Positions 1 to 29,075 are shown, numbered from the stretch's first letter. The stretch: 33,798 bases of DNA from Bacillota bacterium (GCA_044426075.1 JAWXUT010000004.1:1-33798), one strand, 5' to 3'. Program-made: numbers and translations. Notes: a model not told the origin generated them from the letters alone.

Positions 1-793
1 GAGCCGTGGGCTTCTAGGTTGCAGACGCCACTGTAATTAATTGCTTTTAGTGCAGAGATTACTGCGTGCCAGTCTATGGTGCCGAGGGTGGGGGCAAGGT
101 GATCATCTTCTACCCTTGTGTTGTCGTGGAGGTGTATCACTTTTAGTTGATTGCCAAGTTCTTTTATAAAGGACACTCCGCTATCTTCGTGTAAAATGTG
201 TGCGTGACCTATGTCTAGACAAGCGCAGTAGTGCGGATTGTTTAATATTTTTAAGGTGCGGTTTACGTGATTTGCGCAACTCATTGTGCAATGTACTATT
301 TTGTTGTGCTCATTTCTGCCATACATATTTTCTATTGCAAGTGTGATGTTGTGCTTTTGTAAATAGGGCAACAAACTGCCGTAAAGTTTGCATCCTTTAT
401 TATATGTTGATCATATAGTGCGGGATCTTGATCTAGCTTGCTACGCTGAGGGTGCACAACTATGTACTTTGCCCCTAAAATTGCAGATGCGTGTATGGCG
501 TTTTGCATAGATTTTAGCATACTTTCATTGTTTTTGCCGTTGTGTGGCTGTGTTGGATAAGGCGCGTGTGTTTGATGCACTTTTATTCCTATATTGTCAG
601 CATATGCGCGTAGGTCGGAAAAATATGCAATTAGGCTGCTTTCATCTTCTGAAAAATACGGACTACTTGTTGTGTATCTGGACACATAATAGTCAACGCA
701 ATTAAAGCCAGTTTCTTTTATAACAGAAAAAAGTTCTTTGTCGTCTAAGTATTTATCTATTCTTGCTGATGTTATTCCCAATGTTGTATCCAT
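1..793 (-). pseudogene. Sugar phosphate isomerase/epimerase (xylose isomerase-like TIM barrel), disrupted by an apparent frameshift; C-terminus runs off the window
   Basis: Track ORF 332..793 (153 aa, ...IGIKVHQTHAPY...AKYIVVHP...) stops at TAG 332-334. A second minus-strand frame, translated by hand, is open from ~410 down to base 1. It reads LYGSLLPYLQKHNITLAIENMYGRNEHNKIVHCTMSCANHVNRTLKILNNPHYCACLDIGHAHILHEDSGVSFIKELGNQLKVIHLHDNTRVEDDHLAPTLGTIDWHAVISALKAINYSGVCNLEAHGS. This is the expected second half of the same barrel (AIEN, CLDIGH, HLHDN..DH, LE motifs). Both frames are open in 335..410, so a single indel there would restore one protein of 260+ aa. Confidence 0.6.
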
Positions 794-2418: not shown

Positions 2419-2754
2419 AAAAATTATTTGTGCTGCAACAGAATATAAATTTTTGACAGATTTTATTTTCATACGATTAAATTACAAAGTTTAAATTTTT
2501 ATTTCATAGGTTGGCAAAATTTTATATTCGCCAGTTTGGTATCTAATTCTAGCTATTTTGGTAGCCCGATAAAGAATTTTATGAAAAAGGATAAAATTTG
2601 CATTGCATATTAAATTACATAGCATTTTTGCTATTTACAGTTATATTTATATATTTACACATAAATCTAGCGCATTATTATGAGCAAAAATATCAACCAT
2701 AACACTAAGTTTCACATAAAATTCACAAAATTTTTATAAATTCATAAAAAGCTA

Positions 2755-2783
2755 TTGTGTTTTTTTTAAATTAGATATATAAT
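2755..2783 (+). promoter_or_regulatory. Candidate sigma-70 promoter for the zinc-ribbon/4-TM gene
   Basis: TTGTGT(2755-2760), 17 nt, TATAAT(2778-2783). The region is AT-rich, so chance matches are possible. Confidence 0.35.
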
Positions 2784-2847
2784 AGTAGTATATACTAGTG
2801 TGAAAACTGTTCAGCTAGTGCTTACACCGTTTTCAAGGAGAAATTTT

Positions 2848-3981
2848 ATGGAAAATTGTACAAGTGGTGCACAATTCGAAAATGAAACGCCAGAAGCAGC
2901 AAAATCTATGCTAGCTGAAGCGCAAGCAGCCTTCGACCAAGATGCAAAAGTTAGCGTCGACCGCAACAAGATCACATATGTTTGTGAGCTTTGTGCTTGC
3001 ATCAATTTAATTGATGAACCAAACTGCACCAAGTGCGGCAAACCTCGCCCACGTGCTGAGTTTGTTAATGCATTGCGTTCACTTAGAGATGGTGTTGATG
3101 CAAAAGCTGAGTTAGAAGCTAAGGCGGCAGAAGAGGCAAAACTTGCAGAAGAAGCAAAACTTGCAGAAGAAGCACGACTTGCAGAAGAAGCAGCTAAAGA
3201 AGCAGAGGCTCAAGCTAAAACGGAAGAAGTACAATTCTATCGTTATGAAGGCGCAGCTCCTGTTGTTCAACCACAAGCAGTACATCAACCTTTTGTAATT
3301 GTTCCATATGTTGATACTCATCAAAAATTATATCAATATCAACCAAGGCAAGCATTTCGCTTTGTTCCATACACTCCAGAAGAGTTGGCAGAGCAAGCTG
3401 CTCAACAAGCAGAAATGGATGCTGCAGAGTATTTAGAAATGAAAGCTGCTAACCAACAAGCTAGCAACGCTCAAACAGAAGAGCCTAAATGTTGCGGATT
3501 TAAAAAATCTTTGGTTGCAAGGGCAGTAGGTGCAAAAAATGCGGTTGTTGGCATTGCTACAATAGTATTAATGTTCTTCTTTGCTGTGTTTAGCGCAAAT
3601 GCGGATTCAAAGGGATTAGAAATATTTAAATCATTAGGAAACTGTTTTTCAGCTGCGGGCATTAGCTTAGGTTTTAGTTCAAGTACAGTTGCCTATGTTG
3701 ATTGGACATCTTGGATTGCTCCTATTAGTTATGCACTTATCGCAATTATTTCACTTATAGTTGTTATTGTTGGCGTTAAAAAGCTAATTACTGGCAAAGG
3801 TTGCGGCAAAGGTTGGTTGTTAAATCTATCATCTGTTATCGTAGCACTTGCAATGGGCGCGTTGTTGTACTTCTGTCAAGAGGGCTTTACATTTGCTTCA
3901 TTTGGCATCGGATACTTCATTACTTTAGGCTTGACAGCATTGTCAACACTAATCGCTATCTTTACACCTAGCTGTAAATAA
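2848..3981 (+). CDS. Uncharacterised membrane protein: zinc ribbon + AEEAKL coiled-coil repeat + degenerate S-type Pro/Val/Tyr motif + 4-TM M-type domain
   Basis: The track ORF starts at GTG 2800, but the in-frame ATG 2848 follows AAGGAG (2835-2840) by 7 nt. Zinc ribbon: CELC-x10-CTKC (nt 2983-3036). Coiled-coil repeat: (AEEAKL)n. S-type motif: VVQPQAVHQPFVIVPYVDTHQKLYQYQP and FRFVPYTPEE. Four long hydrophobic helices follow (AVVGIATIVLMFFFAVFSA, WIAPISYALIAIISLIVVIVGV, WLLNLSSVIVALAMGALLYF, FGIGYFITLGLTALSTLIAIF). Confidence 0.8.
   Translation: MENCTSGAQFENETPEAAKSMLAEAQAAFDQDAKVSVDRNKITYVCELCACINLIDEPNCTKCGKPRPRAEFVNALRSLRDGVDAKAELEAKAAEEAKLAEEAKLAEEARLAEEAAKEAEAQAKTEEVQFYRYEGAAPVVQPQAVHQPFVIVPYVDTHQKLYQYQPRQAFRFVPYTPEELAEQAAQQAEMDAAEYLEMKAANQQASNAQTEEPKCCGFKKSLVARAVGAKNAVVGIATIVLMFFFAVFSANADSKGLEIFKSLGNCFSAAGISLGFSSSTVAYVDWTSWIAPISYALIAIISLIVVIVGVKKLITGKGCGKGWLLNLSSVIVALAMGALLYFCQEGFTFASFGIGYFITLGLTALSTLIAIFTPSCK
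3127..3198 (+). repeat. In-frame 18-bp tandem repeat (about 4 units) encoding AEEAKL/AEEARL/AEEAAK
   Basis: gcagaagaggcaaaactt (3127-3144), gcagaagaagcaaaactt (3145-3162), gcagaagaagcacgactt (3163-3180), gcagaagaagcagctaaa (3181-3198). Confidence 0.9.
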
Positions 3982-4002
3982 TTAGAAAAACTTATTTTGA
4001 CT

Positions 4003-4031
4003 AAAGGATTGCATATGCAGTCCTTTTTTTT
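4003..4031 (+). terminator. Rho-independent terminator after the 2848..3981 gene
   Basis: aaaggattgca / tgcagtccttt stem (one G-U pair) with a short central loop, followed by a T8 run (4024-4031). Confidence 0.75.
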
Positions 4032-4063
4032 GCAAAAAAATACAAACTTTTTTATATTTGCTA

Positions 4064-4092
4064 TTGTAATCTGTAATATAATATGATATATT
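4064..4092 (+). promoter_or_regulatory. Candidate extended -10 promoter for the first S-M gene pair
   Basis: TTGTAA(4064-4069), 17 nt, TGaTATATT(4084-4092). Confidence 0.4.
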
Positions 4093-4172
4093 AATATAGT
4101 AGTGTAATTGGGATAATTTATTTATTACTACAAAAAAATGTTTCGCCTTTATGGCAAAAGTGGAGGTTACAT

Positions 4173-4424
4173 ATGTCAAAAAAATCAAAGAAAGCAAAGC
4201 AAGAAGCCTTAGAAGCTGAAGAACAAGCAAAGTTAGCAGCAGAAGCTCAAGCTGCCCCAAAATCGCCAAAAATAAGCTTTAGGGTTATGAATAACTGTGG
4301 CGTTGTTCCAGTAGCAAGACCAGCTGACTTTATCCAATTAACACCTATTGTTCAACCTATACCTTTAGTTCCATATAGCACTCAAGAGCAACCAGTGGCT
4401 CAGTTTGAAGACGAAGAAGAATAA
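4173..4424 (+). CDS. Small S-module protein 1 (83 aa): basic N-terminus, EA/Q-rich helix, conserved Pro/Val-rich core, acidic tail
   Basis: GGAGG (4162-4166) lies 6 nt before the ATG. Sequence: MSKKSKKAKQEALEAEEQAKLAAEAQA...SFRVMNNCGVVPVARPADFIQLTPIVQPIPLVPYSTQEQPVAQFEDEEE. The core is almost identical at protein level to the 5380 gene despite many synonymous DNA differences. Confidence 0.88.
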   Translation: MSKKSKKAKQEALEAEEQAKLAAEAQAAPKSPKISFRVMNNCGVVPVARPADFIQLTPIVQPIPLVPYSTQEQPVAQFEDEEE

Positions 4425-4445
4425 GCGTTTGTGGAGGAATAAGTT

Positions 4446-5135
4446 ATGGACAAATATTATATTGTTGACCCTGCAGAGCAAGCAAAGAACAGCACAAACA
4501 TAATTATTGGCAGCGATTCAATTTATTCTACAGCAATGAACGAGGCATATGCAGCAAGATTTGGCCGTCAAGCAATAAAGTATGCTGAGAAACAAGAAGA
4601 AGAGGTTGTGGCTGAACCTGAAATTACACAAGAAGTGGTTGAAGTAAAAGAAGTGGTAGTTGTTCGCAAAAACAAAGTTGCTATCATTATAACTATGTTA
4701 ACCGCATTGCTTACAATTGCGTTAGCCGTTGCAAGTTATCTAAATATTGAGGGACTTGCAACTTACACAGCTTACTATGCTTCAGCGGGCTTACAAAGTG
4801 CTATTGAAGTGTTTAGTTCGGGGGCAAGTATAACAGTAATATTGATTTATGCACTACTACTAGCATCAATTTTGTTTGCATTACTTACTTTTATTAGAGG
4901 CATCATTTTGTTGGCTTCCAAGAAGAAGAAAAAGTGCGCACTACTATTGCCACTATTGTTTTTAGTGATGATAATCGCAAGTGTAGCTATGTTCGTAATA
5001 GAGTATATGGCTACAACAGATATTATGCTACTCATTAATCCTTTTGAGGCAGATGCAATAGGAATAGCAGCTTATGCCACAATAGCATTTGCGTTAATTG
5101 CATTTATATCATCTTTATTCTCATACAAAAAATAA
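4446..5135 (+). CDS. M-module 4-TM membrane protein (229 aa), partner of S1
   Basis: GGAGGA RBS; 21 nt after the S1 stop. Soluble acidic N-terminus, then TM1 (VAIIITMLTALLTIALAVASYL), TM2, the basic loop SKKKKKC, TM3, TM4, and a basic C-terminus (YKK). Confidence 0.8.
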   Translation: MDKYYIVDPAEQAKNSTNIIIGSDSIYSTAMNEAYAARFGRQAIKYAEKQEEEVVAEPEITQEVVEVKEVVVVRKNKVAIIITMLTALLTIALAVASYLNIEGLATYTAYYASAGLQSAIEVFSSGASITVILIYALLLASILFALLTFIRGIILLASKKKKKCALLLPLLFLVMIIASVAMFVIEYMATTDIMLLINPFEADAIGIAAYATIAFALIAFISSLFSYKK

Positions 5136-5142
5136 TCAAATC

Positions 5143-5172
5143 AAACTGGCTTCCAACGAGGTCAGTTTTTTT
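5143..5172 (+). terminator. Rho-independent terminator after the first S-M pair
   Basis: 8-bp stem aaactggc / gtcagttt (one G-U pair), 10-nt loop, T-run to 5172. Confidence 0.6.
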
Positions 5173-5299
5173 ATGTGCAAAATTTGCGTTATGCAGTCAA
5201 CACTCTCTAGTAAAATAAAAGCAAACAGCAAGTTTGTTTGTTTTGTGAACGAGTTGTGATTAATTATGCTAAAAAATTAAAAAAAATATTGTTTTTATA

Positions 5300-5328
5300 T
5301 TGTAAATCATTAATATATATGTTACTAT
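5300..5328 (+). promoter_or_regulatory. Candidate extended -10 promoter for the second S-M pair
   Basis: TTGTAA(5300-5305), 17 nt, TGtTACTAT(5320-5328). Confidence 0.4.
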
Positions 5329-5379
5329 ATAAGTGCATAAAATAAAATCGCAATTTCCGCGATATATATGGAGGATATA

Positions 5380-5640
5380 ATGTCAAGAAAAAAGAGAAAA
5401 GCAGAAGAAGCAAGACTTGCAGCGGAAGCTCAAGCACAGCAAGAAGCGCAAGCTCAACAAGAGGTACAAGCATACAGAATGCCAAAAACCAGTTTTCGCG
5501 TTATGAATAACTGTGGAGTTGTTCCAGTTGCTAGACCTGCGGATTTTATACAATTGACACCAGTTGTACAACCTATTCCACTTGTTCCATACAGCACTCA
5601 AATGCAGCCTCTAGCTCAATTTGAAGAAGAAGAATATTAA
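5380..5640 (+). CDS. Small S-module protein 2 (86 aa)
   Basis: The track ORF starts at ATG 5368, but that ATG overlaps the GGAGG (5370-5374). ATG 5380 is correctly spaced and gives MSRKKRKAEE..., parallel to MSKKSKKAKQ of S1. C-terminus: SFRVMNNCGVVPVARPADFIQLTPVVQPIPLVPYSTQMQPLAQFEEEEY. Confidence 0.88.
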   Translation: MSRKKRKAEEARLAAEAQAQQEAQAQQEVQAYRMPKTSFRVMNNCGVVPVARPADFIQLTPVVQPIPLVPYSTQMQPLAQFEEEEY

Positions 5641-5742
5641 AAACATATTCATAAGATAATAAAATAGAGATGACTTTTAAGTTCAGTTTTAAACACTAAA
5701 ATAATGTGTTGTAGCTGAAGTGATTTTATAATGGAGGCAAAT

Positions 5743-6600
5743 ATGTATAATATTCAAAATGAACATTATAACTATGATGTAAGTGAAAAGGGTAAGGCAA
5801 CGCCTTATTTTAAAGCATATCTATCTGCTACAAACGAAAGGCCTTTTTATGAGGAACCGGTTGTGCCAGTAGTTGTAGATAACAGAAAAGAGCCTAAGCG
5901 CACATTTTTTGTATTAATGGTGGCGATATTGTCATTGTTAATAGTTGCAGTAGTGGGCTTGAGTTTTATGGGCATAATGCCAGAATACACCGCTTTATTC
6001 GGCCAACAAACAGACGAAATTGTTGGTGAAGAGTATGACGAGCCTGCTGATGAAATAGTTGCAGAAGCAGCTACAGCAGAAGACGTAACAGATGGCTCAG
6101 AAACGGATACAGAAACCGAAGAAGAGAGCGTTGAATATGTGTATGCAAAAATAAGTGCCGATGATATAATAAACAGCACGCTAAAAATGTTGGGCATTAT
6201 TGAAACAGAAGAAGAATTGGTATTTTATTCAGAGTGTTTAGCCAATATCGAATTGGTTGAGACCACAGCGCTTATCGCTTACTATGCATTGCCAGCAGCA
6301 ATTGCTTTAACTGCAATTATAGCGCTTTATATCTTTATCAAATCAATATTTGCTTTGTTTAGCGCAAAGAGACGTAAATTCAGCTATATTTCATTATTGT
6401 TACTATTGGTGAGTTTGCTAGGTATTGTTGCGGGCTTGGTTTGGAATGCAGAACCATTGTCAAGCGTACTATCATTCTTTATGATGTCGGGAACAAATTT
6501 AGTACTTGGATTGGGTTATATAATCGTTATTGTACTAGAAATTTTGCTACTAATATGCTCAATGTTCGCCTATCGTAGCAAGAAGAAGGCAAAATATTAG
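5743..6600 (+). CDS. M-module 4-TM membrane protein (285 aa) with an acidic ecto-loop
   Basis: ATG 5743 follows GGAGG (5733-5737); the track start 5731 overlaps the RBS. TM1 is FFVLMVAILSLLIVAVVGLSFMGIMPEYTALFG, followed by a D/E/T-rich segment, then three more TM helices with the basic loop SAKRRK and the C-terminus RSKKKAKY. Clear paralog of the 6940 gene. Confidence 0.8.
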   Translation: MYNIQNEHYNYDVSEKGKATPYFKAYLSATNERPFYEEPVVPVVVDNRKEPKRTFFVLMVAILSLLIVAVVGLSFMGIMPEYTALFGQQTDEIVGEEYDEPADEIVAEAATAEDVTDGSETDTETEEESVEYVYAKISADDIINSTLKMLGIIETEEELVFYSECLANIELVETTALIAYYALPAAIALTAIIALYIFIKSIFALFSAKRRKFSYISLLLLLVSLLGIVAGLVWNAEPLSSVLSFFMMSGTNLVLGLGYIIVIVLEILLLICSMFAYRSKKKAKY

Positions 6601-6624
6601 TAAAACTTTTAGCGCAAATAGGGT

Positions 6625-6652
6625 GGTGGATTAATTTCCACTTACTCTTTTT
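6625..6652 (+). terminator. Weak candidate terminator after the second S-M pair
   Basis: ggtgga / tccact 6-bp stem (one G-U pair), loop ttaatt. The T-run (6648-6652) sits 5 nt from the stem, which is suboptimal. Confidence 0.3.
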
Positions 6653-6707
6653 GGTGTCTATATGGTAAAAATTGATAATAATTTTTGAACAAATTAGTAA
6701 ATAGCTC

Positions 6708-6736
6708 TTGTAATTTTTTGCGTAGTATGTTAAACT
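6708..6736 (+). promoter_or_regulatory. Candidate extended -10 promoter for the five-gene unit 6940..10525
   Basis: TTGTAA(6708-6713), 17 nt, TGtTAAACT(6728-6736). This would give a 5' UTR of ~200 nt. Confidence 0.35.
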
Positions 6737-6939
6737 ATATAATATTATATTATAAGACGCGGGGAGAAAGCGCACGCAGTGCAATTTCGGTTAGTTAGTG
6801 TAATATATCGGTGTTATTGCTAGTTCGGCTAGCTAAATGCAAAGCATTTGTAGATTTAGTAACTTGTTAGTAAGTCAGTAACACGCAGAATGTACAAGTA
6901 AAAGTTATATTTTAATAATTACAAGTTGAGGGAGAGTCA

Positions 6940-8097
6940 ATGGCAAACCAACCATCTAAAGTTAATAATAAAGTAGCGGCTTCGCCATATTACGCAAATT
7001 ATATGGCAAATAAGGGTAATGCAAACCAAAGTAGCGCCGGAAGACCTATGCAAAGGGTTCCTATGAGCACTCCTTACTATGGTGCAGCACCTATGATGGC
7101 GCCTCAACAAACCGTTAGGCCTGCCGCTAAATCAGCAGCAAAGTCAACCGTTAAACCAATGCCACAATATACAGAAAAGCAAGCTAAAAAAATCGAAAGA
7201 CAAAGAAAAAGACAAAGTTCACACTTCTTTGTAATGCGTAAAGGCGTTTGCTTCTTGATGTTTATTTGTTCATTGTTGGTTGTAGCGATGTTGGCATTGA
7301 GCTTTTTAGAAATTATGCCAAGTTTCACATCAATATACGCTATTCCAGATAACACACCACTTGATGAACGTGTTGCTGCTGATAGTTTAGAAGACGATTT
7401 AGATATCTCTAACGCTGCTAGTGATGAAGTTGCAGAAGATGACGCGCTTACAGAAGATGAGTTGTTGAGCGATGTTTATGTTGACGCTACTGAATACGTA
7501 GGTGTTGCAGATTTAATATACGGACTTGCAAACGGAATGTTTGCGTTAGGTTTGGTTGATGAAGAGGGTGTTAGCCTTTCAATCGCCTACGACGAGACAT
7601 TGGCAAGTATCCAAGCAGTTGCGCTAGAATATCCAGAAGATAGTATGGCTTCAATTGCAGCTATGATGTATGAATATATGCCACTTGCAATCGCAGTGCT
7701 TGCAGTTGTTGCAATTATTAGTTTGATAATGAGCTTTTTCGCTTTGTTTGGCAGACGAATATTTAAGGGATTTGGTTTGATGGGAATTATAATGACATTG
7801 TGTTCGGTTGTAGTTTTCATTGCGGGTCTTGCAACGCTAGGGCTTATGAACGGCAATCCAGTTTTCGCAGAAGACGGTACAATAACAAGTTTACTTGATT
7901 TCAGCCAACTAAGCGGATTCTTAACCAGAATAATATCAAGTGCACCAGCAACCGCACTAGATCCATTAGTAGATATAATGCCAGTTGTGTACTGCGCGGG
8001 TATCGGAATGTTAGCTATATTAGTAGCACCAATATTACAAATCGTGCTATCAATATTTGCAAGGCGCAAATTACCTTACAGTATTTTTGATAAGTAA
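6940..8097 (+). CDS. M-module 4-TM membrane protein (385 aa) with a P/Y/Q/A-rich N-terminal region and an acidic ecto-loop
   Basis: GAGGGAG RBS. The TM1 region FFVMRKGVCFLMFICSLLVVAMLALSFLEIMPSFTSIYA aligns with the 5743 protein. The TM2 region EYMPLAIAVLAVVAIISLIMSFFALFGRRIFK aligns with YALPAAIALTAIIALYIFIKSIFALFSAKRRK. Confidence 0.8.
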   Translation: MANQPSKVNNKVAASPYYANYMANKGNANQSSAGRPMQRVPMSTPYYGAAPMMAPQQTVRPAAKSAAKSTVKPMPQYTEKQAKKIERQRKRQSSHFFVMRKGVCFLMFICSLLVVAMLALSFLEIMPSFTSIYAIPDNTPLDERVAADSLEDDLDISNAASDEVAEDDALTEDELLSDVYVDATEYVGVADLIYGLANGMFALGLVDEEGVSLSIAYDETLASIQAVALEYPEDSMASIAAMMYEYMPLAIAVLAVVAIISLIMSFFALFGRRIFKGFGLMGIIMTLCSVVVFIAGLATLGLMNGNPVFAEDGTITSLLDFSQLSGFLTRIISSAPATALDPLVDIMPVVYCAGIGMLAILVAPILQIVLSIFARRKLPYSIFDK

Positions 8098-8114
8098 ACA
8101 TTAGGAGGGATAAT

Positions 8115-8384
8115 ATGTTTAATAGTAAACGTAAAAAAATAGAGAAACAAATGGCAATTGAAGCCGAAATGCAAGCTCGTATTAATAATGAAGCTGCACT
8201 TGTTGAGGCAAATTCACCTAAACAACCTCGTGCTTCTGTAAGATTAATGCATAACTGTGGTCCAGTGCCAATAGCACCTCCTTCAGATTTCATTCAACTT
8301 ACACCAATTGTACAACCTATCCCACTTGTTCCATATAGCACTCAAAGCCAACCACTTGTGATGTTTGACGAGTTCGAAGATTAA
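8115..8384 (+). CDS. Small S-module protein 3 (89 aa)
   Basis: AGGAGGG RBS; 17 nt after the upstream stop. Sequence: MFNSKRKKIEKQMAIEAEMQAR...SVRLMHNCGPVPIAPPSDFIQLTPIVQPIPLVPYSTQSQPLVMFDEFED. Confidence 0.88.
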   Translation: MFNSKRKKIEKQMAIEAEMQARINNEAALVEANSPKQPRASVRLMHNCGPVPIAPPSDFIQLTPIVQPIPLVPYSTQSQPLVMFDEFED

Positions 8385-8410
8385 TTGATCTTTGGGAGGA
8401 AATAGACATA

Positions 8411-9139
8411 ATGCAAAAAGCACAGTCAATAAATTCCTATATGGCAGACTCAAATAGTGATGTTGTTCAAGTTTCTAAAGGCGGTGGCGTACCAGTTTCA
8501 CCTATTGCGGTTACACAATACGTTACTCCTATTGTTTCTGTTGGTGCAATGGCACCATATCATCTCAAAGGGCAACCCGCTTTAGTTGAGCCAAACTACT
8601 TTGATGAAATGGCAGAAGATGCTGTTTCAACAGAAGAAGTCGTTGCTGTTGAATGTAGTGATAAAATTCGCAAAAGAGGATGTAGTTTTTCTTCTTTACT
8701 TGCAATCATATTGGCAATTGCTACTGTGTTTGCGCTAGTAGCGGGTAAATACATAAATAGCATTGCAGAGTATTGTGCTATTGCTGATGGTTCAATAGGA
8801 TATACTTATATTGAATCATTAATAAACAACATTACCAGCGGTGTTGTATTGAGCGCAGAAAATATTATTCCACTTTGCGTGGCATTAATAGCAGTGTGCA
8901 GCATATTGACAATTATCGCTTGTGTTATTAAATTAGGCTATAAAGGGGTTTGTATATTTGCAAAAATTACCATACTTCTTACGCTAGCAAGTTGTGGCGT
9001 TGCGTTAGGTTACGCAATTGGTACAGGGATTGCTGTTGATATTTGCCTATATGTTATATGTGGTATTACTTTTATACAAAGCGTTGTTGCGTTATGTGTA
9101 AAAAGATATAAAAATTGTAAAAAAGAAATTAAAGCTTAG
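8411..9139 (+). CDS. Fusion protein: degenerate S motif + M-module 4-TM domain (242 aa)
   Basis: GGGAGGA RBS. The N-terminus GGGVPVSPIAVTQYVTPIVSVGAMAPYHLKGQPALVEPNYFDE resembles the S core. It is followed by RKRGCSF-TM1 and three further TM helices, with the basic C-terminus KRYKNCKKEIKA. Confidence 0.8.
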   Translation: MQKAQSINSYMADSNSDVVQVSKGGGVPVSPIAVTQYVTPIVSVGAMAPYHLKGQPALVEPNYFDEMAEDAVSTEEVVAVECSDKIRKRGCSFSSLLAIILAIATVFALVAGKYINSIAEYCAIADGSIGYTYIESLINNITSGVVLSAENIIPLCVALIAVCSILTIIACVIKLGYKGVCIFAKITILLTLASCGVALGYAIGTGIAVDICLYVICGITFIQSVVALCVKRYKNCKKEIKA

Positions 9140-9170
9140 TTTAAACTGAAGAGGGATTAAGGAGAGCCGT

Positions 9171-9560
9171 ATGAATAGAAAAAAATCAAAAAAATGTTGC
9201 CAACCTGCAGTTGCTGAAACTTGTGCTCCAGTACAAGAACAACGCAGACCAGCGGTTGCTGTTGCAACAAATATGCCTTTTGCGCAACAATCACAACAAG
9301 CAGCATATATGCCAAACGCAAGTCAATTTGCAGTTATGGGCAACGCAATGCCTATGGGATTAGCTCAATACAATTCTGTTGATGAGTATGGCCGAGTTTA
9401 TAGTCCAATAATGAGTTATGGCCCACAACCAAACAGCGCACCAGTGCCAGTTGCAATTCCATCACAAATTGTACAATTGACACCAATAGTAGCCCCTGTT
9501 TCATTTGTACCATATGCAACACAAAACCAAGGCTTGTATCAATTTGAAGAAGAGATTTAA
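9171..9560 (+). CDS. Small S-module protein 4 (129 aa), longer Q/M/A/P-rich middle
   Basis: AAGGAGAG RBS. N-terminus: MNRKKSKKCC. C-terminus: APVPVAIPSQIVQLTPIVAPVSFVPYATQNQGLYQFEEEI. Confidence 0.85.
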   Translation: MNRKKSKKCCQPAVAETCAPVQEQRRPAVAVATNMPFAQQSQQAAYMPNASQFAVMGNAMPMGLAQYNSVDEYGRVYSPIMSYGPQPNSAPVPVAIPSQIVQLTPIVAPVSFVPYATQNQGLYQFEEEI

Positions 9561-9577
9561 ACAAAGGGAGAAGTTTA

Positions 9578-10525
9578 ATGGAAAACAATACTAACAACAT
9601 CGGTCTACAATCAAATCAAGGCGCACAGCAATCACAAGGTAAGTGGGTAGCTGTTGATGCCAATACTGTAGGCAATATTCCTACCGATATCGCAGCCAAT
9701 CAACCTTTTCAAGGTGCTGATGGCGCTATGTACTGTATGGGTGAACCACAACAAGCACTTGCTCAAATTAACAGCAATGTTACGCAAAACGCAGTGCCAG
9801 TTCCTTCCTCAATAGTGCAAATGCCACCTATCGTGCAACCTATTGCATTGGTGCCATTTACATCACAAAATCAACCATTATTGCAATATGATCCATATTC
9901 AAGGCCAGTAGAACCTCAAGTTCAACCAGCTCAACCAGAATATAAACTAAATCCTTACAAAGGCAACAGCCTTGCTGCTATGCTTTTAGGAATTGTATCA
10001 TTGGTGCTAGTACTATTCTTGTCAATGGCGAACTTTGCAGAAACAGCTTCTGTTGCAGCATATAGCTCTAACGGATTAGATATGATATTTGCAGTGCTTG
10101 CATATTTCGGTCTTGGTGTTTCAAGTTCATACTACACTGGCAATATTGAACCAAACCTAGATTCAATGTCTTCTGACATAATGAGTGCAATTATTGTTTT
10201 TGCTGTACCAGTTTGCATAATTGTTATAGCGTTAATAACATTAATTCTTGTTATCAAGAACCTAGTTAAATTAGCAAAAGGTGTTTCACCAAAATGCTTC
10301 AGCATAGGTGCACTAGTTAATATAATATTGATTGTTGCTGTACTTGGATTCTTGCTAGGTATGAACAATGCAGCTGAGGGCGAAATGAATATCGCTGGAT
10401 TCTTTAGCAGAAGTTCTAGCATTTACTGGGGAATTGGTCTTGCTGTAGCATTAGTATTAAATATAGTACATATTATAATAGTAGCTCTTCCAAAGAAAAA
10501 CAATTATATTGAAATCAACAAATAA
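9578..10525 (+). CDS. Fusion protein: S motif + M-module 4-TM domain (315 aa)
   Basis: AGGGAGAAG RBS. The N-terminal half contains AVPVPSSIVQMPPIVQPIALVPFTSQNQPLLQYDPY. Then come TM1 (LAAMLLGIVSLVLVLFLSMANF), TM2, the loop KLAKGVSPKC, TM3, TM4 and the C-terminus PKKNNYIEINK. Confidence 0.82.
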   Translation: MENNTNNIGLQSNQGAQQSQGKWVAVDANTVGNIPTDIAANQPFQGADGAMYCMGEPQQALAQINSNVTQNAVPVPSSIVQMPPIVQPIALVPFTSQNQPLLQYDPYSRPVEPQVQPAQPEYKLNPYKGNSLAAMLLGIVSLVLVLFLSMANFAETASVAAYSSNGLDMIFAVLAYFGLGVSSSYYTGNIEPNLDSMSSDIMSAIIVFAVPVCIIVIALITLILVIKNLVKLAKGVSPKCFSIGALVNIILIVAVLGFLLGMNNAAEGEMNIAGFFSRSSSIYWGIGLAVALVLNIVHIIIVALPKKNNYIEINK

Positions 10526-10551
10526 AAAATAACAAATACAGACTAAAAGGG

Positions 10552-10591
10552 TGGTGCGGTTTTGAATTTACAGAACAGCACCATTATTTTT
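10552..10591 (+). terminator. Rho-independent terminator (or attenuator) closing the S/M array
   Basis: 13-bp stem tggtgcggttttg / cagaacagcacca (1 mismatch, 1 G-U pair), 6-nt loop, then ttattttt. Confidence 0.7.
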
Positions 10592-10606
10592 AAAAAGGAG
10601 TTTATA

Positions 10607-10879: not shown

Positions 10880-10908
10880 TTGACAATGCACGGCGCTTAT
10901 GATATATT
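10880..10908 (+). promoter_or_regulatory. Promoter of rpmG-secE-nusG
   Basis: TTGACA(10880-10885), 17 nt, TGaTATATT(10900-10908). Confidence 0.6.
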
Positions 10909-10992
10909 ATATAAGCATCCTTGCATAGGGGTGTAATTTTTTGTGAAAGAATAAACACGAACCATACTGGCTAACGCCAAACGGAGGTATAC

Positions 10993-24884: not shown

Positions 24885-26051
24885 ATGAAAAGATTTTTTA
24901 CTTCAGAAAGTGTCACAGAAGGACACCCAGATAAAGTTTGCGACCAAATATCAGATGCTGTATTAGACAGCATCTTAGCGGTTGCACCAGAGTCAAGAGT
25001 AGCTTGCGAAACCGTAGTTACTACTGGTATGGTGCTTGTTATGGGTGAAGTTACAACTTCTGCAACACTTGATATACCTTCAATCGTACGTGATACCGTA
25101 AAAGAGATAGGTTATGTAAATCCAGAAAGTGGGTTTGACTACCGTTCTTGTTCGGTGTTGGTTACGCTTGACAGACAGTCAGCTGACATCGCTCTTGGTG
25201 TAGATAGCAGTTTAGAAGATAAAGCTAGCGATTCTCACTATGACAAGATTGGTGCGGGTGACCAAGGTATGATGTTTGGATTTGCTTGCAACGAAACAGA
25301 AGAATTAATGCCAATGCCAATTATGCTTGCACACAAGTTGTCACAAAAGTTGACAGATGTGCGTAAATCTGGTGCATTGACATATCTTCGTCCCGACGGC
25401 AAATCACAAGTTACCATTGAGTATGACGGAAACAAGGTAAAAAGAGTTGATACAGTAGTTTTGTCAACTCAACACAGCGAAGAAATTAGCATCGATAAGT
25501 TGCGTAGCGACCTAAAAGAGGCGGTTATTGAAGCTGTTATTCCGGCTGAACTTATGGATAGCGATACAAAAATATACATAAATCCTACTGGCAGATTTGT
25601 AATTGGCGGCCCTCAAGGTGATAGCGGTCTTACTGGCAGAAAGATTATTGTTGATACTTATGGCGGATATGCACCACACGGTGGTGGCGCTTTTAGCGGA
25701 AAAGATCCAACAAAAGTGGATAGAAGCGCGGCTTATTATGCAAGATATGTTGCAAAAAACATTGTTGCAAGCGGACTAGCTGATAAATGTGAGTTGCAAC
25801 TTGCATACGCTATCGGAAAAGCACAACCCGTTTCTATTTTAGTAAACACATTTGGCACTGGTAAGTTAGCTGATGATGTGCTGGTTGAAGCGTTACCAAC
25901 AATTTTCGACTTCAGACCAAAGGCAATTATCGACGCACTTGATTTAACCCAGCCACAATATCGCAAAACGGCAAGTTATGGTCATTTTGGCAGAGATTGC
26001 TTCAGTTGGGAAAAAACCGATAAAATAGCTGAGTTAAAGAGGCTTATTTAA
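24885..26051 (+). CDS. metK: S-adenosylmethionine synthetase
   Basis: [52 protein letters not shown]. It starts 7 nt after the rpoC stop. Confidence 0.95.
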
Positions 26052-28276
26052 TGATAATTGAAGGAAGTGTTGAAAGGATAGCCTTCCGCAATGAGGAAAA
26101 TGGTTATACTGTAATTGATTTTTATGCTGACAACAAGGTTATACCTGTTGTTGGCATTTTTCCTATGATCTGCGTGGGCGAAACGCTTTCTTTAGTGGGT
26201 GAATATGTCACAAAAGGCATATATGGCGAGCAATTTTCGGTAAAAGAAGTTGTTTATAAGTCGCCAACAGATAAATTTGGCATCATAAATTACCTATCTT
26301 CGGGTTTGTTTAAAGGTGTTGGAATTTCAATTGCCACCTCAATTTTTGAGACATTTGGCACAGATACATTAAAAGTTATGGAAAATACGCCCGATAAACT
26401 TTCAAAAGTTAGGGGCATAAGTGCAAAGCGCGCGGTAGAAATTGGCATAGAGTTTGGCAAGCATATTGATATGCAACACACATTAATATTTTTGCAACAG
26501 CACGGCATAACACTTGGTCAGTCATTAAAAATCTACAAAAAATATGGTGCAAATACTGAAGAACAACTACTCGATAATCCATATAAATTGGTAGAGGATA
26601 TTGAGGGAATAGGGTTTACAACAGCCGATAAAATGGCGGGTAAATTTGGCATTGATAGCGACAGTGAGTTCAGAATAATGGCTGGAATCACGCATATTTT
26701 GCAAGAGGGCGCAAGCCGTGAAGGTCACACATGTATGCCATATGATATGGTTGTTGATGCAAGTGCGCACTTGTTGGGGGTTGTTGATACCGAAAAAGTC
26801 GCAAGTTGTATTGCGCCAATGTTATTAACTTTGAGACTTAAAAAGCACAGCATTACAATCAATAATGAAGATGTTGAAATGTTGGCTCTGCCACAATTTT
26901 ATGCAACTGAAGGTGCAATAGCAATGCGTTTAATGCGCTTGATATCTGCGGTGGAAACGGTAAATTTCAACCTTGAAAAAGACATTGCACGCTACGAGCA
27001 CAGCAACGATATCTTGTTGCACGAAGCACAAAAAAAGGCGATTGAAACGGCAATAAGCAGTGGTGTTATGGTTATAACGGGCGGGCCTGGTACCGGCAAA
27101 ACCACCATAATAAAATGCATAACAGAGTTGTTTATGTCTAGCGGAAAAAGGGTAAAGTTATGTGCCCCAACCGGAAGAGCGGCAAAGCGTATGAGCGAGG
27201 CAACTGGGTTAGAGGCAAAAACAATACACCGTTTGTTGGGTATGGAATTTGCAGAAGGCAAGTTTAACTTTAAGTACAATGAACTTGAGCCGCTTGACGC
27301 CGATGTTGTTATAGTTGATGAGATAAGTATGGCTGATATTTTCATATTCAACTCATTGATAAAAGCGCTTGAAATGGGCACAAGGATTGTGCTTGTTGGC
27401 GATAAAGATCAACTACCTTCAGTGTCTGCAGGTAACATTTTGGGTGACATAATTGCGTGCAATATGGTACCCGTAATCGCATTAACTGAAATTTATAGGC
27501 AAGATGCAAACAGTTTAATTATATCAAACGCGCACCGCATAAACAACGGTGAAATGCCAGTGCTAAACAACGCATCTAAGGACTTTTTTGTAGATGATAA
27601 GATAGAGCCAGAAACAATTTCTGACACGGCAATTGCAATGTATACAAGTAGATTGCCAAAGTATTTTAACATTGCCGCCACCGATATCCAAGTGTTGACG
27701 CCAGTCAAAAAAACCGTTTGCGGGGTGGAAGCGTTAAATGCAAATATTCAAAAAATAATAAATCCAGTTGGCTCATATGTAACGTGTCGCGACACCATAT
27801 TTAGGGTGGGTGACAAGGTTATGCAAATTGTAAATGATTACGATTTGGAGTGGACGCGTGAAGACGGTTTCAATTTTGAAGAAGGCAAGGGTGTTTTCAA
27901 CGGCGATATTGGGTTTATTAAGGATATAAACAAAGATACTATTCTTGTAAAATATGACGATAACAAGATAGTTAGATACAAAAAAGACAAACACGAAGAA
28001 CTCAATTTGGCATATGCAATAAGCGTGCATAAGAGTCAAGGTTCGGAGTTTAAAGTGGTGCTTTTGGTGCTTGCAAAAAGTTACAGAGGGCTGCTTACAA
28101 GAAACCTATTGTACACCGCCGTCACTAGGGCAAAAGAAGCAGTGGTTATAGTGGGCAATCCTAACACAATTTTGAGTATGGTGCACAACAATGTATCCGC
28201 AAAAAGATACACTTTACTAAAAGATTTGTTGGAAAAAGGCAACGCAAGAATGGGCAAAATTCTGCACGGAGAATAG
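26051..28276 (+). CDS. recD2: ATP-dependent RecD-like DNA helicase (RecD2, SF1B)
   Basis: TAATG overlap with the metK stop. It has an N-terminal OB/HhH-like region, Walker A GGPGTGKTT, VIVDEISM, and the C-terminal motifs AISVHKSQGSEF and YTAVTRAK. Confidence 0.88.
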   Translation: MIIEGSVERIAFRNEENGYTVIDFYADNKVIPVVGIFPMICVGETLSLVGEYVTKGIYGEQFSVKEVVYKSPTDKFGIINYLSSGLFKGVGISIATSIFETFGTDTLKVMENTPDKLSKVRGISAKRAVEIGIEFGKHIDMQHTLIFLQQHGITLGQSLKIYKKYGANTEEQLLDNPYKLVEDIEGIGFTTADKMAGKFGIDSDSEFRIMAGITHILQEGASREGHTCMPYDMVVDASAHLLGVVDTEKVASCIAPMLLTLRLKKHSITINNEDVEMLALPQFYATEGAIAMRLMRLISAVETVNFNLEKDIARYEHSNDILLHEAQKKAIETAISSGVMVITGGPGTGKTTIIKCITELFMSSGKRVKLCAPTGRAAKRMSEATGLEAKTIHRLLGMEFAEGKFNFKYNELEPLDADVVIVDEISMADIFIFNSLIKALEMGTRIVLVGDKDQLPSVSAGNILGDIIACNMVPVIALTEIYRQDANSLIISNAHRINNGEMPVLNNASKDFFVDDKIEPETISDTAIAMYTSRLPKYFNIAATDIQVLTPVKKTVCGVEALNANIQKIINPVGSYVTCRDTIFRVGDKVMQIVNDYDLEWTREDGFNFEEGKGVFNGDIGFIKDINKDTILVKYDDNKIVRYKKDKHEELNLAYAISVHKSQGSEFKVVLLVLAKSYRGLLTRNLLYTAVTRAKEAVVIVGNPNTILSMVHNNVSAKRYTLLKDLLEKGNARMGKILHGE

Positions 28277-28315
28277 TATTTATATAATATATTATGATTC
28301 TAAGGGGGAGTTATT

Positions 28316-29065
28316 ATGACAAAAGACGACAACTTTAATTCTATACTAGAAAAAGGCAAGTTATTTTTGCAGAAAACACTGTTCCCAAAGGCGCATAAAT
28401 GTATTTTTTGTGGCAGAGAAATTTACAAAGATAACGGTTTGTATTCCACTTGCGACAAGTGTTTTGAAAAATTGCCGTATAGGTTGGGCGAATATTGTTT
28501 GATTTGTGGTGACCCCGCGGTTGAACGCAATTTGTGCAAAAGGTGCAGAGATTTTAGACCCGATTTCAGTGCGTTATATGCGCCATTTAATTATACGCAA
28601 AAAGTGAGTTCTGTTGCGGTTGGTTACAAAGATAAGCCCAATAAATGGATGGCTCCTTACATTGCAAAATATATGGCGGATTGGTACAATACTTTTAATA
28701 TTGTGGGCGAAGTTATGGTTTATGTGCCTTCTAGCCCCGACGCAATTAAAAGCCGTAGGTTTGATCACAACGAGTTGGTTGCAGAAGAGCTTGCAAAAAT
28801 GATAAACATTCCAGTGGTAAATGCGCTTAGTTGCAGTGGAATGGTTAGCAGTCAGACCGAAAATGACAGAGAAATGCGCTCATTAAACGTGGTAGGTGCG
28901 TTTCATAAATCCGAAGATTATAACACCGAGCTAATAGAAAATAAAGATGTTATTTTGATTGACGATGTTGTAACAACGGGGGCAACGGTGCGAGAGTGCG
29001 CGCGTGTGCTAATGCAAGAAAATAAGGCAAAAAGCGTAAGAGTATTGGCTTTTGCAAGAAGATAA
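28316..29065 (+). CDS. comFC: ComF family protein (ComFC-like phosphoribosyltransferase with N-terminal double zinc ribbon)
   Basis: CIFCG...CDKC...CLICG...CKRC zinc ribbons; PRTase loop VILIDDVVTTGAT. Confidence 0.85.
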   Translation: MTKDDNFNSILEKGKLFLQKTLFPKAHKCIFCGREIYKDNGLYSTCDKCFEKLPYRLGEYCLICGDPAVERNLCKRCRDFRPDFSALYAPFNYTQKVSSVAVGYKDKPNKWMAPYIAKYMADWYNTFNIVGEVMVYVPSSPDAIKSRRFDHNELVAEELAKMINIPVVNALSCSGMVSSQTENDREMRSLNVVGAFHKSEDYNTELIENKDVILIDDVVTTGATVRECARVLMQENKAKSVRVLAFARR

Positions 29066-29075
29066 CGGAGTATAT

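What the first reader, a model, noticed from the sequence alone, without database searches (positions are those of the whole stretch)
2755..10591. Ten-gene same-strand array built from just two recurring modules: small Pro/Val-motif proteins (S) and 4-TM membrane proteins (M)
A 7.8-kb block lies between a sugar-uptake gene and the conserved acpP/rpmG-secE-nusG cluster. I can see no enzyme, regulator, transporter signature, transposase or phage gene in it. Every ORF is a free S protein (4173, 5380, 8115, 9171), a free M protein (4446, 5743, 6940), or an S-M fusion (2848, 8411, 9578). The order is [fusion] T [S-M] T [S-M] (T) [M-S-fusion-S-fusion] T, where T is a terminator. All ten ORFs have good Shine-Dalgarno sites. 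In the last unit the intergenic gaps are 17-31 nt, which suggests translational coupling. Repeated local duplication of a two-component module, with strong conservation of one 35-40 aa motif, suggests a dedicated lineage-specific system. I do not recognise either module as a named family. Hypotheses include a membrane-anchored scaffold or envelope-assembly system, or variant adaptor/receptor pairs.
Basis: partly seen in the sequence, partly recalled or inferred. Interest (0 to 1): 0.88.

Follow-up and report, generated by a model that had tools for sequence, protein, structure and literature searches.

The report
Conserved tetraspan plus proline-motif gene cluster
This is a real, strongly conserved block of genes of unknown function, found only in a group of uncultured gut and digester Clostridia, that most likely builds a multi-part membrane scaffold from four-helix membrane proteins and a shared short proline-rich docking motif.

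Summary
There are ten same-strand ORFs with Shine-Dalgarno sites and four terminator hairpins. Two modules recur: a ~37-aa Pro/Val/Gln motif (S, 7 copies) and a 4-TM domain (M, 6 copies).

It is not a recent local expansion. An 8-gene version (F1-M2-S-M3-S-F2-S4-F3) keeps the same gene order between gltX and acpP-rpmG-secE-nusG in about 65 species-level MAGs of uncultured Christensenellales-type Clostridia. Each position is an old orthologue: dN/dS is 0.04-0.19, and each position has its own version of S. The window is a 10-gene variant.

No Pfam, NCBIfam, PADLOC, PHROGs or PDB sequence match reaches threshold, and every database name is "hypothetical protein". The S profile finds only 151 of 1.84 billion protein clusters. 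Its only known companion domain is a zinc ribbon.

AlphaFold2 models M confidently as an N-in/C-in tetraspan. The weak fold and profile matches that recur are claudin, TARP, MP20, LetA and SUR7. None is significant, and hhalign against LetA/PqiA is negative. S is modelled as disordered, lies in the cytoplasm and is the most conserved segment.

Best reading: a vertically inherited, non-enzymatic heteromeric tetraspan membrane complex held together or decorated by a cytoplasmic linear motif. Its physiological role is unknown.

The parts
2848..3981 (+). F1: zinc ribbon, coiled coil, degenerate S motif and 4-TM M domain (377 aa)
   Evidence: ORF. Orthologues at the first cluster position in about 40 loci, 24-34% identical. 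The L001 orthologue carries PF12773 DZR.
2983..3036 (+). F1 zinc ribbon, CELC-x10-CTKC
   Evidence: Read from the sequence. Zinc-ribbon Pfam families are the only known domains found together with S.
3100..3228 (+). F1 Ala/Glu/Lys-rich coiled-coil-like segment
   Evidence: Sequence. The DNA repeat families D2/D3 are the same low-complexity coding sequence.
3253..3345 (+). S motif copy in F1 (degenerate, with a doubled VPY)
   Evidence: S HMM, E 8e-9; alignment.
3544..3969 (+). M domain of F1
   Evidence: M HMM, E 4.5e-16.
4003..4034 (+). Terminator-like hairpin plus T tract after F1
   Evidence: -14.6 kcal/mol, z -3.6.
4173..4424 (+). S1: free S protein (83 aa) with a basic N-terminus, the S motif at nt 4305-4412 and an acidic tail
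4446..5135 (+). M1: free 4-TM protein (229 aa), M domain at nt 4677-5132. It is an extra copy compared with the canonical 8-gene cluster.
   Evidence: M HMM, E 1e-19. It has no positional orthologue in most loci.
5143..5175 (+). Terminator-like hairpin plus T tract after M1
   Evidence: -12.9 kcal/mol, z -3.6.
5380..5640 (+). S2: free S protein (86 aa), S motif at nt 5521-5628
   Evidence: Its core DNA is 81% identical to that of S1.
5743..6600 (+). M2: free 4-TM protein (285 aa) with an N-terminal TPYF motif and a long acidic first outer loop; M domain at nt 5911-6588
   Evidence: Orthologues at cluster position 2.
6612..6657 (+). Weaker terminator-like hairpin after M2
   Evidence: -18.2 kcal/mol, z -4.0.
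6940..8097 (+). M3: free 4-TM protein (385 aa), M domain at nt 7246-8085. It has a large first and second outer loop, an invariant inner loop and the invariant C-terminus PYSIFDK.
8115..8384 (+). S3: free S protein (89 aa), S motif at nt 8262-8372
8411..9139 (+). F2: S-M fusion (242 aa), degenerate S at nt 8489-8590, M at nt 8684-9112
   Evidence: S E 9e-7, M E 2e-20. Positional orthologues.
9171..9560 (+). S4: longer free S protein (129 aa) with its own N-terminal region (YNSVDEYGRVYSP); S at nt 9441-9551
9578..10525 (+). F3: S-M fusion (315 aa), S at nt 9794-9895, M at nt 9968-10510
   Evidence: 127 homologues. AF2 mean pLDDT 82, with the M domain above 90 and S below 50. The S segment is 92% conserved.
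10544..10592 (+). Terminator-like hairpin plus U tract after F3; marks the end of the block
   Evidence: -19.3 kcal/mol, z -5.5, 0 of 200 shuffles as stable.

Best explanation
The block encodes a vertically inherited, lineage-specific, multi-subunit complex of the cytoplasmic membrane. Five or six paralogous tetraspan subunits (M: four TM helices, N- and C-termini inside, short beta strands in the outer loops) sit side by side in the membrane. Their cytoplasmic face is tied together, or decorated, by a ~37-aa Pro/Val/Gln-rich linear motif (S, consensus VPVA.P..IVQLTPIVQPI.LVPY.TQ.QPL.QF). S is either fused in front of TM1 (F1, F2, F3) or supplied by small soluble partners (basic N-terminus, S, acidic-aromatic tail). 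S is disordered on its own and would fold on binding. Each copy has its own conserved version, so each probably has its own docking site. The M domains have no conserved polar or catalytic residues, so the complex is more likely a scaffold or organiser than an enzyme or transporter. Shown: the modules, their topology and orientation, the conservation pattern, the synteny and the purifying selection. Inferred: physical assembly, S as the docking element, and the scaffold role. Unknown: the physiological process served (membrane or envelope organisation is my guess).
For: Eight positional orthologues in a fixed order occur in 32 fully detected canonical loci and about 65 loci overall. dN/dS is 0.035-0.185 for all eight genes, including the 80-130 aa S ORFs. 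Pairwise identities of F3, M3 and F1 track those of the neighbouring NusG (rho 0.34-0.58). AF2 gives the F3 M domain pLDDT above 90 with 4 TM helices and 3 short outer strands, and gives S pLDDT below 50. The M3 model has the same architecture. K/R lie on the predicted inner segments and D/E in the outer loops. Conservation peaks on the cytoplasmic side: F3 S motif 4.0 bits per column, M3 inner loop 4.0, M3 C-tail 4.05, against 1.4-1.7 for the F3 outer loops. S cores are 0.68-0.90 identical within a position but 0.23-0.57 between positions, except Sa/Sb at 0.71. When fused, S is always N-terminal to M. One genome has a single ORF with at least 5 tandem M domains, a natural M-M fusion. The few invariant residues within the M domains are mostly Pro, Gly and aromatic residues; the only invariant polar ones, two Asp and a Ser in M3, lie in its outer loops. 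Strict sigma-A-type promoters are enriched upstream of cluster units (10 of 174 against 0.3 expected), and sporulation-sigma patterns are not.
Against: No interaction was tested, and no multimer prediction was possible. In the natural fusion F3, AF2 does not dock S onto its own M domain. S may therefore bind something encoded elsewhere. The numbers of S motifs and M domains are not strictly matched: 6 to 5 in the canonical cluster, 7 to 6 in the window, and only 2 S in L065. The tetraspan-superfamily likeness is not statistically significant. All genomes are MAGs. There are no expression or localisation data.
Confidence: 0.42

Rival explanations
1. Membrane adaptor for an external cytoplasmic machine. 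M proteins are only anchors. The S motif, together with the acidic-aromatic tail of the free S proteins, recruits a conserved soluble partner encoded elsewhere, for example a cytoskeletal or division protein, a chaperone or the translation/secretion apparatus. Free S proteins would act as competitors or regulators.
For: S is near-invariant (92% in F3) and disordered in the monomer model, and it is not docked on its own M domain. Free S proteins end in EEEYYED/DEEY-type tails (55% D/E), a design that resembles known partner-recruiting tails (my own knowledge: SSB and tubulin tails). The cluster sits among core translation and transcription genes.
Against: Position-specific S variants fit several distinct sites better than one common partner. 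No candidate partner is conserved in the neighbourhood across the three kinds of locus. No known motif class matches S.
Confidence: 0.25
2. LetA/PqiA-like lipid transporter. Zinc-ribbon plus tetraspan modules would move lipids, possibly linked to the adjacent acyl carrier protein.
For: The best Foldseek hit of the F3 model is LetA, 9n8w_A (E 0.045, probability 0.84). LetA modules consist of a zinc ribbon plus a tetraspan TMD and can be split over adjacent genes (PMC13017536). F1 has a zinc ribbon. A bona fide ACP gene follows F3 in about 60 loci. L065 has tandem M domains.
Against: hhalign of the M profile against LetA/PqiA modules gives probability 0.1%. There is no PqiA Pfam hit. No MCE gene occurs in any locus listed with Pfam annotation. 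The zinc ribbon occurs in only one subunit class and lies about 170 aa from TM1. M has no conserved polar network. A terminator separates F3 from acpP. The termite-gut and second loci lack acpP.
Confidence: 0.1
3. Sporulation- or differentiation-specific membrane complex.
For: A second S/M locus in a related genome lies next to spoIIE, yabP, yabQ-like and TasA/SipW-like genes. One M3 orthologue gives a sub-threshold SpoIIM hit (E 1.3e-4).
Against: The main cluster lies among housekeeping genes. Upstream regions are enriched for sigma-A-type consensus promoters, not sigma E/K/F/G/H patterns. The adjacency in L081 is a single observation.
Confidence: 0.08
4. Peptide-plus-immunity (bacteriocin or toxin) array, a mobile or defence island, or non-functional duplicated ORFs.
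For: Small ORFs alternate with small multi-TM ORFs, which superficially resembles bacteriocin/immunity loci.
Against: The chromosomal position is fixed and tracks NusG. dN/dS is at most 0.19 with no diversification of the peptide. S lacks a signal or leader peptide and is fused on the cytoplasmic side of M. There is no exporter, peptidase, integrase or transposase. PADLOC gives no hit and PHROGs none below E 0.01; the IMG/VR scan finds no relative. GC content is the same as in the flanks.
Confidence: 0.03

Closest known systems
Claudin / PMP22 / MP20 / TARP / LHFPL / SUR7 tetraspan membrane proteins (eukaryotic)
   Same: Both have four TM helices with both ends cytoplasmic, a larger first outer loop and short beta strands contributed by both outer loops (AF2). 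Nearly all of the top 50 Foldseek hits of F3 are from this group, and they recur for M3. Sub-threshold Pfam hits to SUR7 (14 of 31 M3 orthologues), L_HMGIC_fpl (10 of 31) and PMP22_Claudin (2 of 31) fall on TM2-loop-TM3. Like claudins and TARPs, the proteins carry a cytoplasmic short linear motif and lack catalytic residues.
   Different: No match is significant: best Foldseek E is 0.045, and best Pfam score is 26.0 bits against a cut-off of 29.6. The claudin W...C...C signature is not seen in outer loop 1 of the window proteins. The linear motif here is N-terminal and 37 aa long, not a C-terminal PDZ ligand. The subunits are encoded as a fixed bacterial multi-paralogue operon together with free motif-only proteins.
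LetA / PqiA (bacterial zinc-ribbon plus tetraspan lipid-transport modules; PMC13017536)
   Same: LetA is the only described prokaryotic tetraspan-type family and is the top Foldseek hit. It has a zinc ribbon next to a tetraspan TMD. Its modules can be fused in tandem or split over adjacent genes.
   Different: There is no sequence relation (hhalign probability 0.1%; no PF04403 hit). There is no MCE partner. The host is a Bacillota lineage. The zinc ribbon is in only one subunit and is far from the TMD. There is no conserved polar network. The S motif has no counterpart in LetA.
Shared-motif gene neighbours, such as bacterial amyloid signalling sequences (BASS) and other motif-templated pairs
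   Same: A short conserved motif is shared between adjacent gene products. One is small and soluble and the other carries a larger domain (comparison from my own knowledge).
   Different: There is no NLR or Bell-type partner. S is proline-rich, which is unfavourable for amyloid cores. There are seven copies per locus, and the cluster has a fixed housekeeping-like position. Not tested here.

Membership tests
Claudin/PMP22/TARP/SUR7 tetraspan superfamily | Four TM helices with N- and C-termini cytoplasmic | tested here: met
   AF2 helices in F3 (128-147, 201-234, 243-267, 286-303) and the equivalent helices in M3. K/R are on the inner segments and D/E in the outer loops.
Claudin/PMP22/TARP/SUR7 tetraspan superfamily | Extracytoplasmic beta sheet built from loop 1 and loop 2 | tested here: inconclusive
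   DSSP on the F3 model shows strands 149-153 and 162-165 (loop 1) and 282-284 (loop 2). M3 shows only 2-3-residue strands. Model coordinates could not be inspected.
Claudin/PMP22/TARP/SUR7 tetraspan superfamily | Profile match at or above the Pfam gathering score (PMP22_Claudin, Claudin_2, SUR7, L_HMGIC_fpl) | tested here: not met
   The window proteins give no hit at E<1. The best orthologue scores 26.0 bits on SUR7 against a cut-off of 29.6, over TM2-TM3 only.
Claudin/PMP22/TARP/SUR7 tetraspan superfamily | Significant structural match to a solved member | tested here: inconclusive
   Foldseek on F3: MP20 E 0.14 (probability 0.89), claudin-3 E 0.17, TARPs E 0.2-0.7. On M3: claudin-15 E 2.7. 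No hit reaches E<=0.001.
Claudin/PMP22/TARP/SUR7 tetraspan superfamily | Claudin signature W-x(n)-W-x2-C-x(8-10)-C in outer loop 1 (signature quoted from my own knowledge) | tested here: not met
   I saw no such Trp/Cys pattern in the first outer loops of the six window M domains; read by eye from the translations, no pattern search was run.
LetA/PqiA lipid-transport family | Sequence or profile similarity to PqiA/LetA modules | tested here: not met
   No PF04403 hit. hhalign of a 339-sequence M profile against the four E. coli LetA/PqiA modules gives probability 0.1%.
LetA/PqiA lipid-transport family | A zinc ribbon directly preceding each tetraspan TMD | tested here: not met
   A CxxC...CxxC pattern occurs in 39 of 179 fusion proteins, which I take to be essentially the F1 class (class membership of the 39 was not tabulated), and in 4 of 163 free M proteins. 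In the window F1 it lies about 170 aa before TM1.
LetA/PqiA lipid-transport family | An adjacent MCE-domain partner (LetB/PqiB) | tested here: not met
   No MCE family appears among the Pfam-annotated genes of L001-L003, L080 and L081, and none in the window.
Class II bacteriocin plus immunity loci | A leader-bearing secreted peptide with a dedicated exporter or peptidase, and a diversifying peptide | tested here: not met
   No exporter or peptidase gene is present. The S core is 0.68-0.90 identical within a position and dN/dS is 0.04-0.14. S is fused on the cytoplasmic side of M.
Known anti-phage defence or phage gene families | Match to PADLOC or PHROGs models, or presence on viral contigs | tested here: not met
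   PADLOC gives no hits. PHROGs gives only E>=0.014 low-complexity hits. IMG/VR has no relatives.

The most novel reading that the evidence does not exclude
This would be the first prokaryotic claudin/TARP-like tetraspan web outside LetA. In this reading it is an obligate hetero-oligomer of five or six specialised tetraspan paralogues, cross-linked on the cytoplasmic side by a family-specific linear motif that also exists as free small proteins. Together they would form a new kind of membrane-organising or envelope-scaffolding machine that is core to an uncultured order-level branch of gut Clostridia.
Probability: 0.3. Interest if true: 0.8.

Novelty: categorically new. Interest (0 to 1): 0.68.

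Why it matters
Two uncharacterised protein modules make up 8-10 strongly constrained genes at a fixed core-genome position in dozens of uncultured species from gut, rumen, digester and termite-gut samples, yet every copy is annotated "hypothetical". If M is a true tetraspan relative, bacteria would have a second, non-transporter use of a fold long thought to be eukaryotic (LetA being the first, PMC13017536). It would also offer a compact model of how a short linear motif specifies the assembly of paralogous membrane subunits. In practical terms, the S motif and the F3 protein are sharp lineage markers, and the cluster is a ready target for multimer prediction and heterologous expression.

Tried and rejected
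- **Family libraries.** Pfam, NCBIfam, PADLOC and PHROGs scans of all ten proteins gave nothing at threshold.
- **PDB sequence search.** The F3 profile gave only TM-bias hits with E>=0.8, and the S profile gave nothing.
- **Rfam.** No match on the whole window.
- **Foldseek against PDB.** Two AF2 models gave no significant hit.
- **hhalign.** M profile against LetA/PqiA was negative.
- **S-core searches.** Against 5.8 billion proteins the S-core profile found only small S proteins, all from MAGs labelled Christensenellales, Clostridia or Bacillota. Against 1.84 billion representatives it found 151 clusters. Ten unusual architectures were checked, and only zinc ribbons turned up.
- **Exact look-up of the window F3.** Not on record.
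- **IMG/VR scan.** No relatives.
- **Literature.** Full-text search for motif strings and for Christensenellales cluster descriptions found nothing.
- **Identity to the window versus NusG.** Uninformative, because all relatives are about equally distant from the window. All-against-all pairs were used instead.
- **Window promoter scan.** No more sigma-70-like sites than in shuffles (31 against 32.9), so the individual promoter calls in the window are not evidence.
- **Sporulation-sigma patterns.** Not enriched upstream of cluster units.
- **acpP as part of the system.** Rejected. It is separated from F3 by a terminator and is absent from the other two locus types.

Full report
**1. The observation**

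- I call them F1 (2848-3981), S1 (4173-4424), M1 (4446-5135), S2 (5380-5640), M2 (5743-6600), M3 (6940-8097), S3 (8115-8384), F2 (8411-9139), S4 (9171-9560) and F3 (9578-10525).
- Every ATG is preceded by a GGAG/GAGG-type Shine-Dalgarno sequence 4-10 nt upstream. The gaps within the last unit are 17, 26, 31 and 17 nt.
- Hairpins followed by T tracts lie after F1, M1, M2 (weaker) and F3. They fold much better than shuffled sequence, with z-scores of -3.6 to -5.5.
- GC content matches the flanks.
- HMMs seeded only from the window find the S motif in exactly seven proteins and the M domain in exactly six.

**2. It is a conserved system, not a local curiosity**

- F3 has 127 homologues, all unnamed and all from MAGs labelled Clostridia or Christensenellaceae. 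M3 has 73. Source names are uniformly "hypothetical protein".
- A scan of one genome per GTDB species returned 74 loci. The MAGs are labelled Clostridia, Christensenellales, Christensenellaceae, "Christensenella sp. UBA..." or Candidatus Stercoripulliclostridium, and come from chicken, ruminant and human gut, digesters and termite gut.
- Mapping S and M HMM hits and marker genes on these loci gives one recurrent architecture: gltX, then F1 M2 S M3 S F2 S4 F3, then acpP rpmG secE nusG.
- Best-hit labelling shows that each position is its own orthologous group. Thirty-two loci have the exact FMSMSFSF pattern.
- The window is a variant. It has an extra S1-M1 pair, S2 lies before M2 rather than after it, and gltX is absent.
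- S1 and S2 are the only copies similar at the DNA level, 81% over 160 nt.
- Nei-Gojobori dN/dS between related genomes is 0.035-0.185 for all eight genes, small S ORFs included.
- Pairwise identities of F3, M3 and F1 correlate with those of the adjacent NusG (rho 0.34-0.58). The pairs are not independent, so the p-values are inflated.
- The paralogues are therefore ancient, vertically inherited and individually constrained.
- The same modules also occur in two other settings. One is a second locus of another Christensenellales genome, next to spoIIE, yabP and TasA/SipW-like genes. The other is a divergent cluster in termite-gut Clostridiales MAGs, which has zinc-ribbon proteins but lacks the rpmG context.

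**3. What the modules are**

*Family membership*
- No Pfam, NCBIfam, PADLOC or PHROGs model reaches threshold.
- PDB sequence searches are empty or show only TM-bias hits.
- IMG/VR has no relative.

*The S motif*
- Its consensus over 282 distinct copies is PVPVA.P[AS][DS][IF][VI]QL[TP]PIVQP[IVF][AP][LFI]VPY[ST][TS]Q.QPL. Q, P, V, P and Y are present in 77-94% of copies at key positions.
- A profile of the seven window cores, run against 1.84 billion representative proteins, finds only 151 clusters at E<=0.001.
- Their lengths fall into three classes: free S (50-145 aa), S-M fusions (220-350 aa) and F1-like proteins (370-450 aa).
- The only known domain found with S is the zinc ribbon (DZR, Zn_Ribbon_1).
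- Free S proteins (n=125) have three parts. The N-terminus is basic (MSKKSKK...; 36% K/R in the first 12 residues). S follows. The tail has a median length of 8 aa, is 55% D/E and carries Tyr, for example EEEYYED or DEEY.

*The M domain*
- AF2 on a 50-sequence F3 alignment gives mean pLDDT 82. The M domain scores above 90. It has four TM helices, two short strands and two helices in outer loop 1, one strand in outer loop 2, and a small two-stranded element formed by the pre-TM1 segment and the C-tail on the inner face.
- In the same model the S motif (residues about 59-100) has pLDDT below 50, so it is a linear motif that is not docked in cis.
- M3 (31 sequences, mean pLDDT 75) shows the same core with much larger outer loops.
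- K/R cluster on the predicted inner segments and D/E in the outer loops. The topology is therefore N-in/C-in, and S is cytoplasmic.

*Where conservation sits*
- Conservation is highest on the cytoplasmic side. The F3 S motif has 4.0 bits per column and a 92% majority residue.
- The M3 inner loop (LFGRRIFKGFG) has 4.0 bits and the M3 C-tail (KVPYSIFDK) 4.05 bits. The F3 outer loops have 1.4-1.7 bits.
- The few invariant residues within the M domains are mostly Pro, Gly and aromatic residues; the only invariant polar ones, two Asp and a Ser in M3, lie in its outer loops. This argues against catalysis or proton-coupled transport.

*Position-specific versions of S*
- Ungapped identity of the 37-aa core within a position is 0.90 (F3), 0.80 (Sa), 0.76 (Sb), 0.74 (S4), 0.68 (F2) and 0.53 (F1).
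- Between positions it is 0.23-0.57, except Sa/Sb at 0.71.

*Other features*
- One genome (L065) encodes at least five M domains in tandem in a single ORF. This natural fusion argues that M domains work side by side.
- M proteins without S often carry an N-terminal [STAN]PY[YFS] motif: 56 of 163, against 0 of 179 fusions and 4 of 501 control ORFs.

**4. Relation to known folds**

- Foldseek of the F3 model against PDB returns no significant hit.
- Its list is nevertheless almost entirely one fold class: LetA (9n8w_A, E 0.045, probability 0.84), MP20 (probability 0.89), claudin-3 and -19, TARP gamma-2/3/5/8, GARLH4 and the Cav gamma subunit.
- Claudins, TARP and GARLH4 recur for M3 at E 2.7-10.
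- When 31 M3 orthologues are scanned one by one, 14 hit SUR7 (best E 8.7e-6), 10 hit L_HMGIC_fpl and 2 hit PMP22_Claudin.
- All of these hits are below the gathering score and cover only TM2-loop-TM3.
- The LetA paper defines LetA modules as a zinc ribbon plus a tetraspan TMD. It states that the tetraspanin superfamily had been thought to be eukaryotic (PMC13017536).
- hhalign of a 339-sequence M profile against the four E. coli LetA/PqiA modules is negative (probability 0.1%; sequences).
- No MCE partner is present in any annotated locus.
- My conclusion is that M has a claudin/TARP/LetA-like tetraspan topology. Superfamily membership is unproven, and M is not a LetA/PqiA family member.

**5. 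Mechanism**

My best-supported reading is a non-enzymatic hetero-oligomeric tetraspan complex in the cytoplasmic membrane.
- S would be its cytoplasmic docking element, either tethered in F1, F2 and F3 or delivered by free S proteins to subunits without S.
- Shown: modules, topology, conservation pattern, synteny and selection.
- Inferred: assembly, and S acting as a ligand.
- The main rival is that S recruits a soluble machine encoded elsewhere.
- The LetA-like lipid transport, sporulation-specific, and bacteriocin/immunity or mobile-element readings are each disfavoured by specific tests (see the rival explanations).
- Where a strict consensus promoter is present upstream of cluster units across loci, it is sigma-A-like (10 of 174 against 0.3 in shuffles). 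Sporulation-sigma patterns are not enriched.
- Gaps of 120 nt or more, which could hold promoters, recur mainly before F1 and before M3, suggesting a basic two-operon layout.
- The adjacent acpP is a genuine ACP (TIGR00517, 71.8 bits against a cut-off of 70.45). A terminator separates it from F3, and it is absent from the other locus types, so I treat it as a neighbour and not a component.

**6. Novelty and verdict**

- Both modules are unnamed and confined to one uncultured lineage. I found no described system with this composition, including by full-text search for motif strings.
- I rate it categorically new as a system. The caveats are that the M fold probably belongs to a known structural class and that the function is unknown.
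- Interest is 0.68. It is a strong, well-delimited lead with clear next experiments, but it is not yet tied to a known biological question.

Noticed in passing
window 24885-30125: Four genes lie between rpoC and rpsL-rpsG-fusA: metK (S-AdoMet synthetase), a RecD2/YrrC-type helicase, a ComFC-like protein (double zinc ribbon plus phosphoribosyltransferase) and tsaD. This is an unusual insertion into the otherwise classical rpoBC-str arrangement.
   Followed up: partly
window 2419-2847: In most related loci the order is MFS transporter, small ORF, gltX, then the cluster. Here gltX is missing, and a ~430-nt AT-rich non-coding stretch separates the GPH/MelB-like symporter from F1.
   Followed up: partly
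L081 5870-11062 (JGI 3300064362, contig Ga0610559_000027): This is a second S/M locus in another Christensenellales genome: four M proteins and three near-identical 72-73-aa S proteins, interrupted by an alkaline-phosphatase-like gene. It is flanked by spoIIE, yabP and yabQ-like genes on one side and by TasA/camelysin-like and SipW-like genes on the other.
   Followed up: partly
L065 5104-7971 (MAG 'Christensenella sp. UBA1782'): A single ORF of at least 955 aa contains five tandem M domains arranged as pairs separated by acidic linkers. That cluster has no free S genes, and only F1 and F3 carry S. The ORF contains an N-derived X, so its end is uncertain.
   Followed up: partly
L071-L077 (termite-gut Clostridiales MAGs), e.g. 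L072 5159-10942: This is a divergent version of the system: a zinc-ribbon-M protein, several short M proteins, duplicated 69-77-aa S proteins and a Cys-rich S-M fusion. It lies away from the rpmG-secE-nusG region and has a separate double-zinc-ribbon protein upstream.
   Followed up: partly
window M2 aa 20-23 and M3 aa 15-18 and 44-47; loci generally: M proteins without S often carry an N-terminal [STAN]PY[YFS] motif (56 of 163), which never occurs in S-M fusions (0 of 179) and is rare in control ORFs (4 of 501). It may be a second cytoplasmic linear motif.
   Followed up: partly
L076 and L014: Contigs carrying the cluster are labelled 'uncultured Bacteroidaceae bacterium' (L076) and 'Ruminococcus bicirculans' (L014). 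Given the gltX-cluster context, these are probably mis-binned or mislabelled contigs.
   Followed up: no
window 10880-10934: The best sigma-70-like promoter in the region (TTGACA-17-TATATT with an extended TG, 11 of 12 matches) is followed at once by a hairpin plus T tract, upstream of rpmG. This may be a leader or attenuator for the rpmG-secE-nusG operon. Rfam had no match.
   Followed up: no
window 332-793 (- strand): A 153-aa ORF has a sub-threshold xylose-isomerase-like TIM-barrel (AP_endonuc_2) match covering only the first ~108 of 249 profile positions. It may be a truncated gene or a mis-called start next to the sugar symporter.
   Followed up: no
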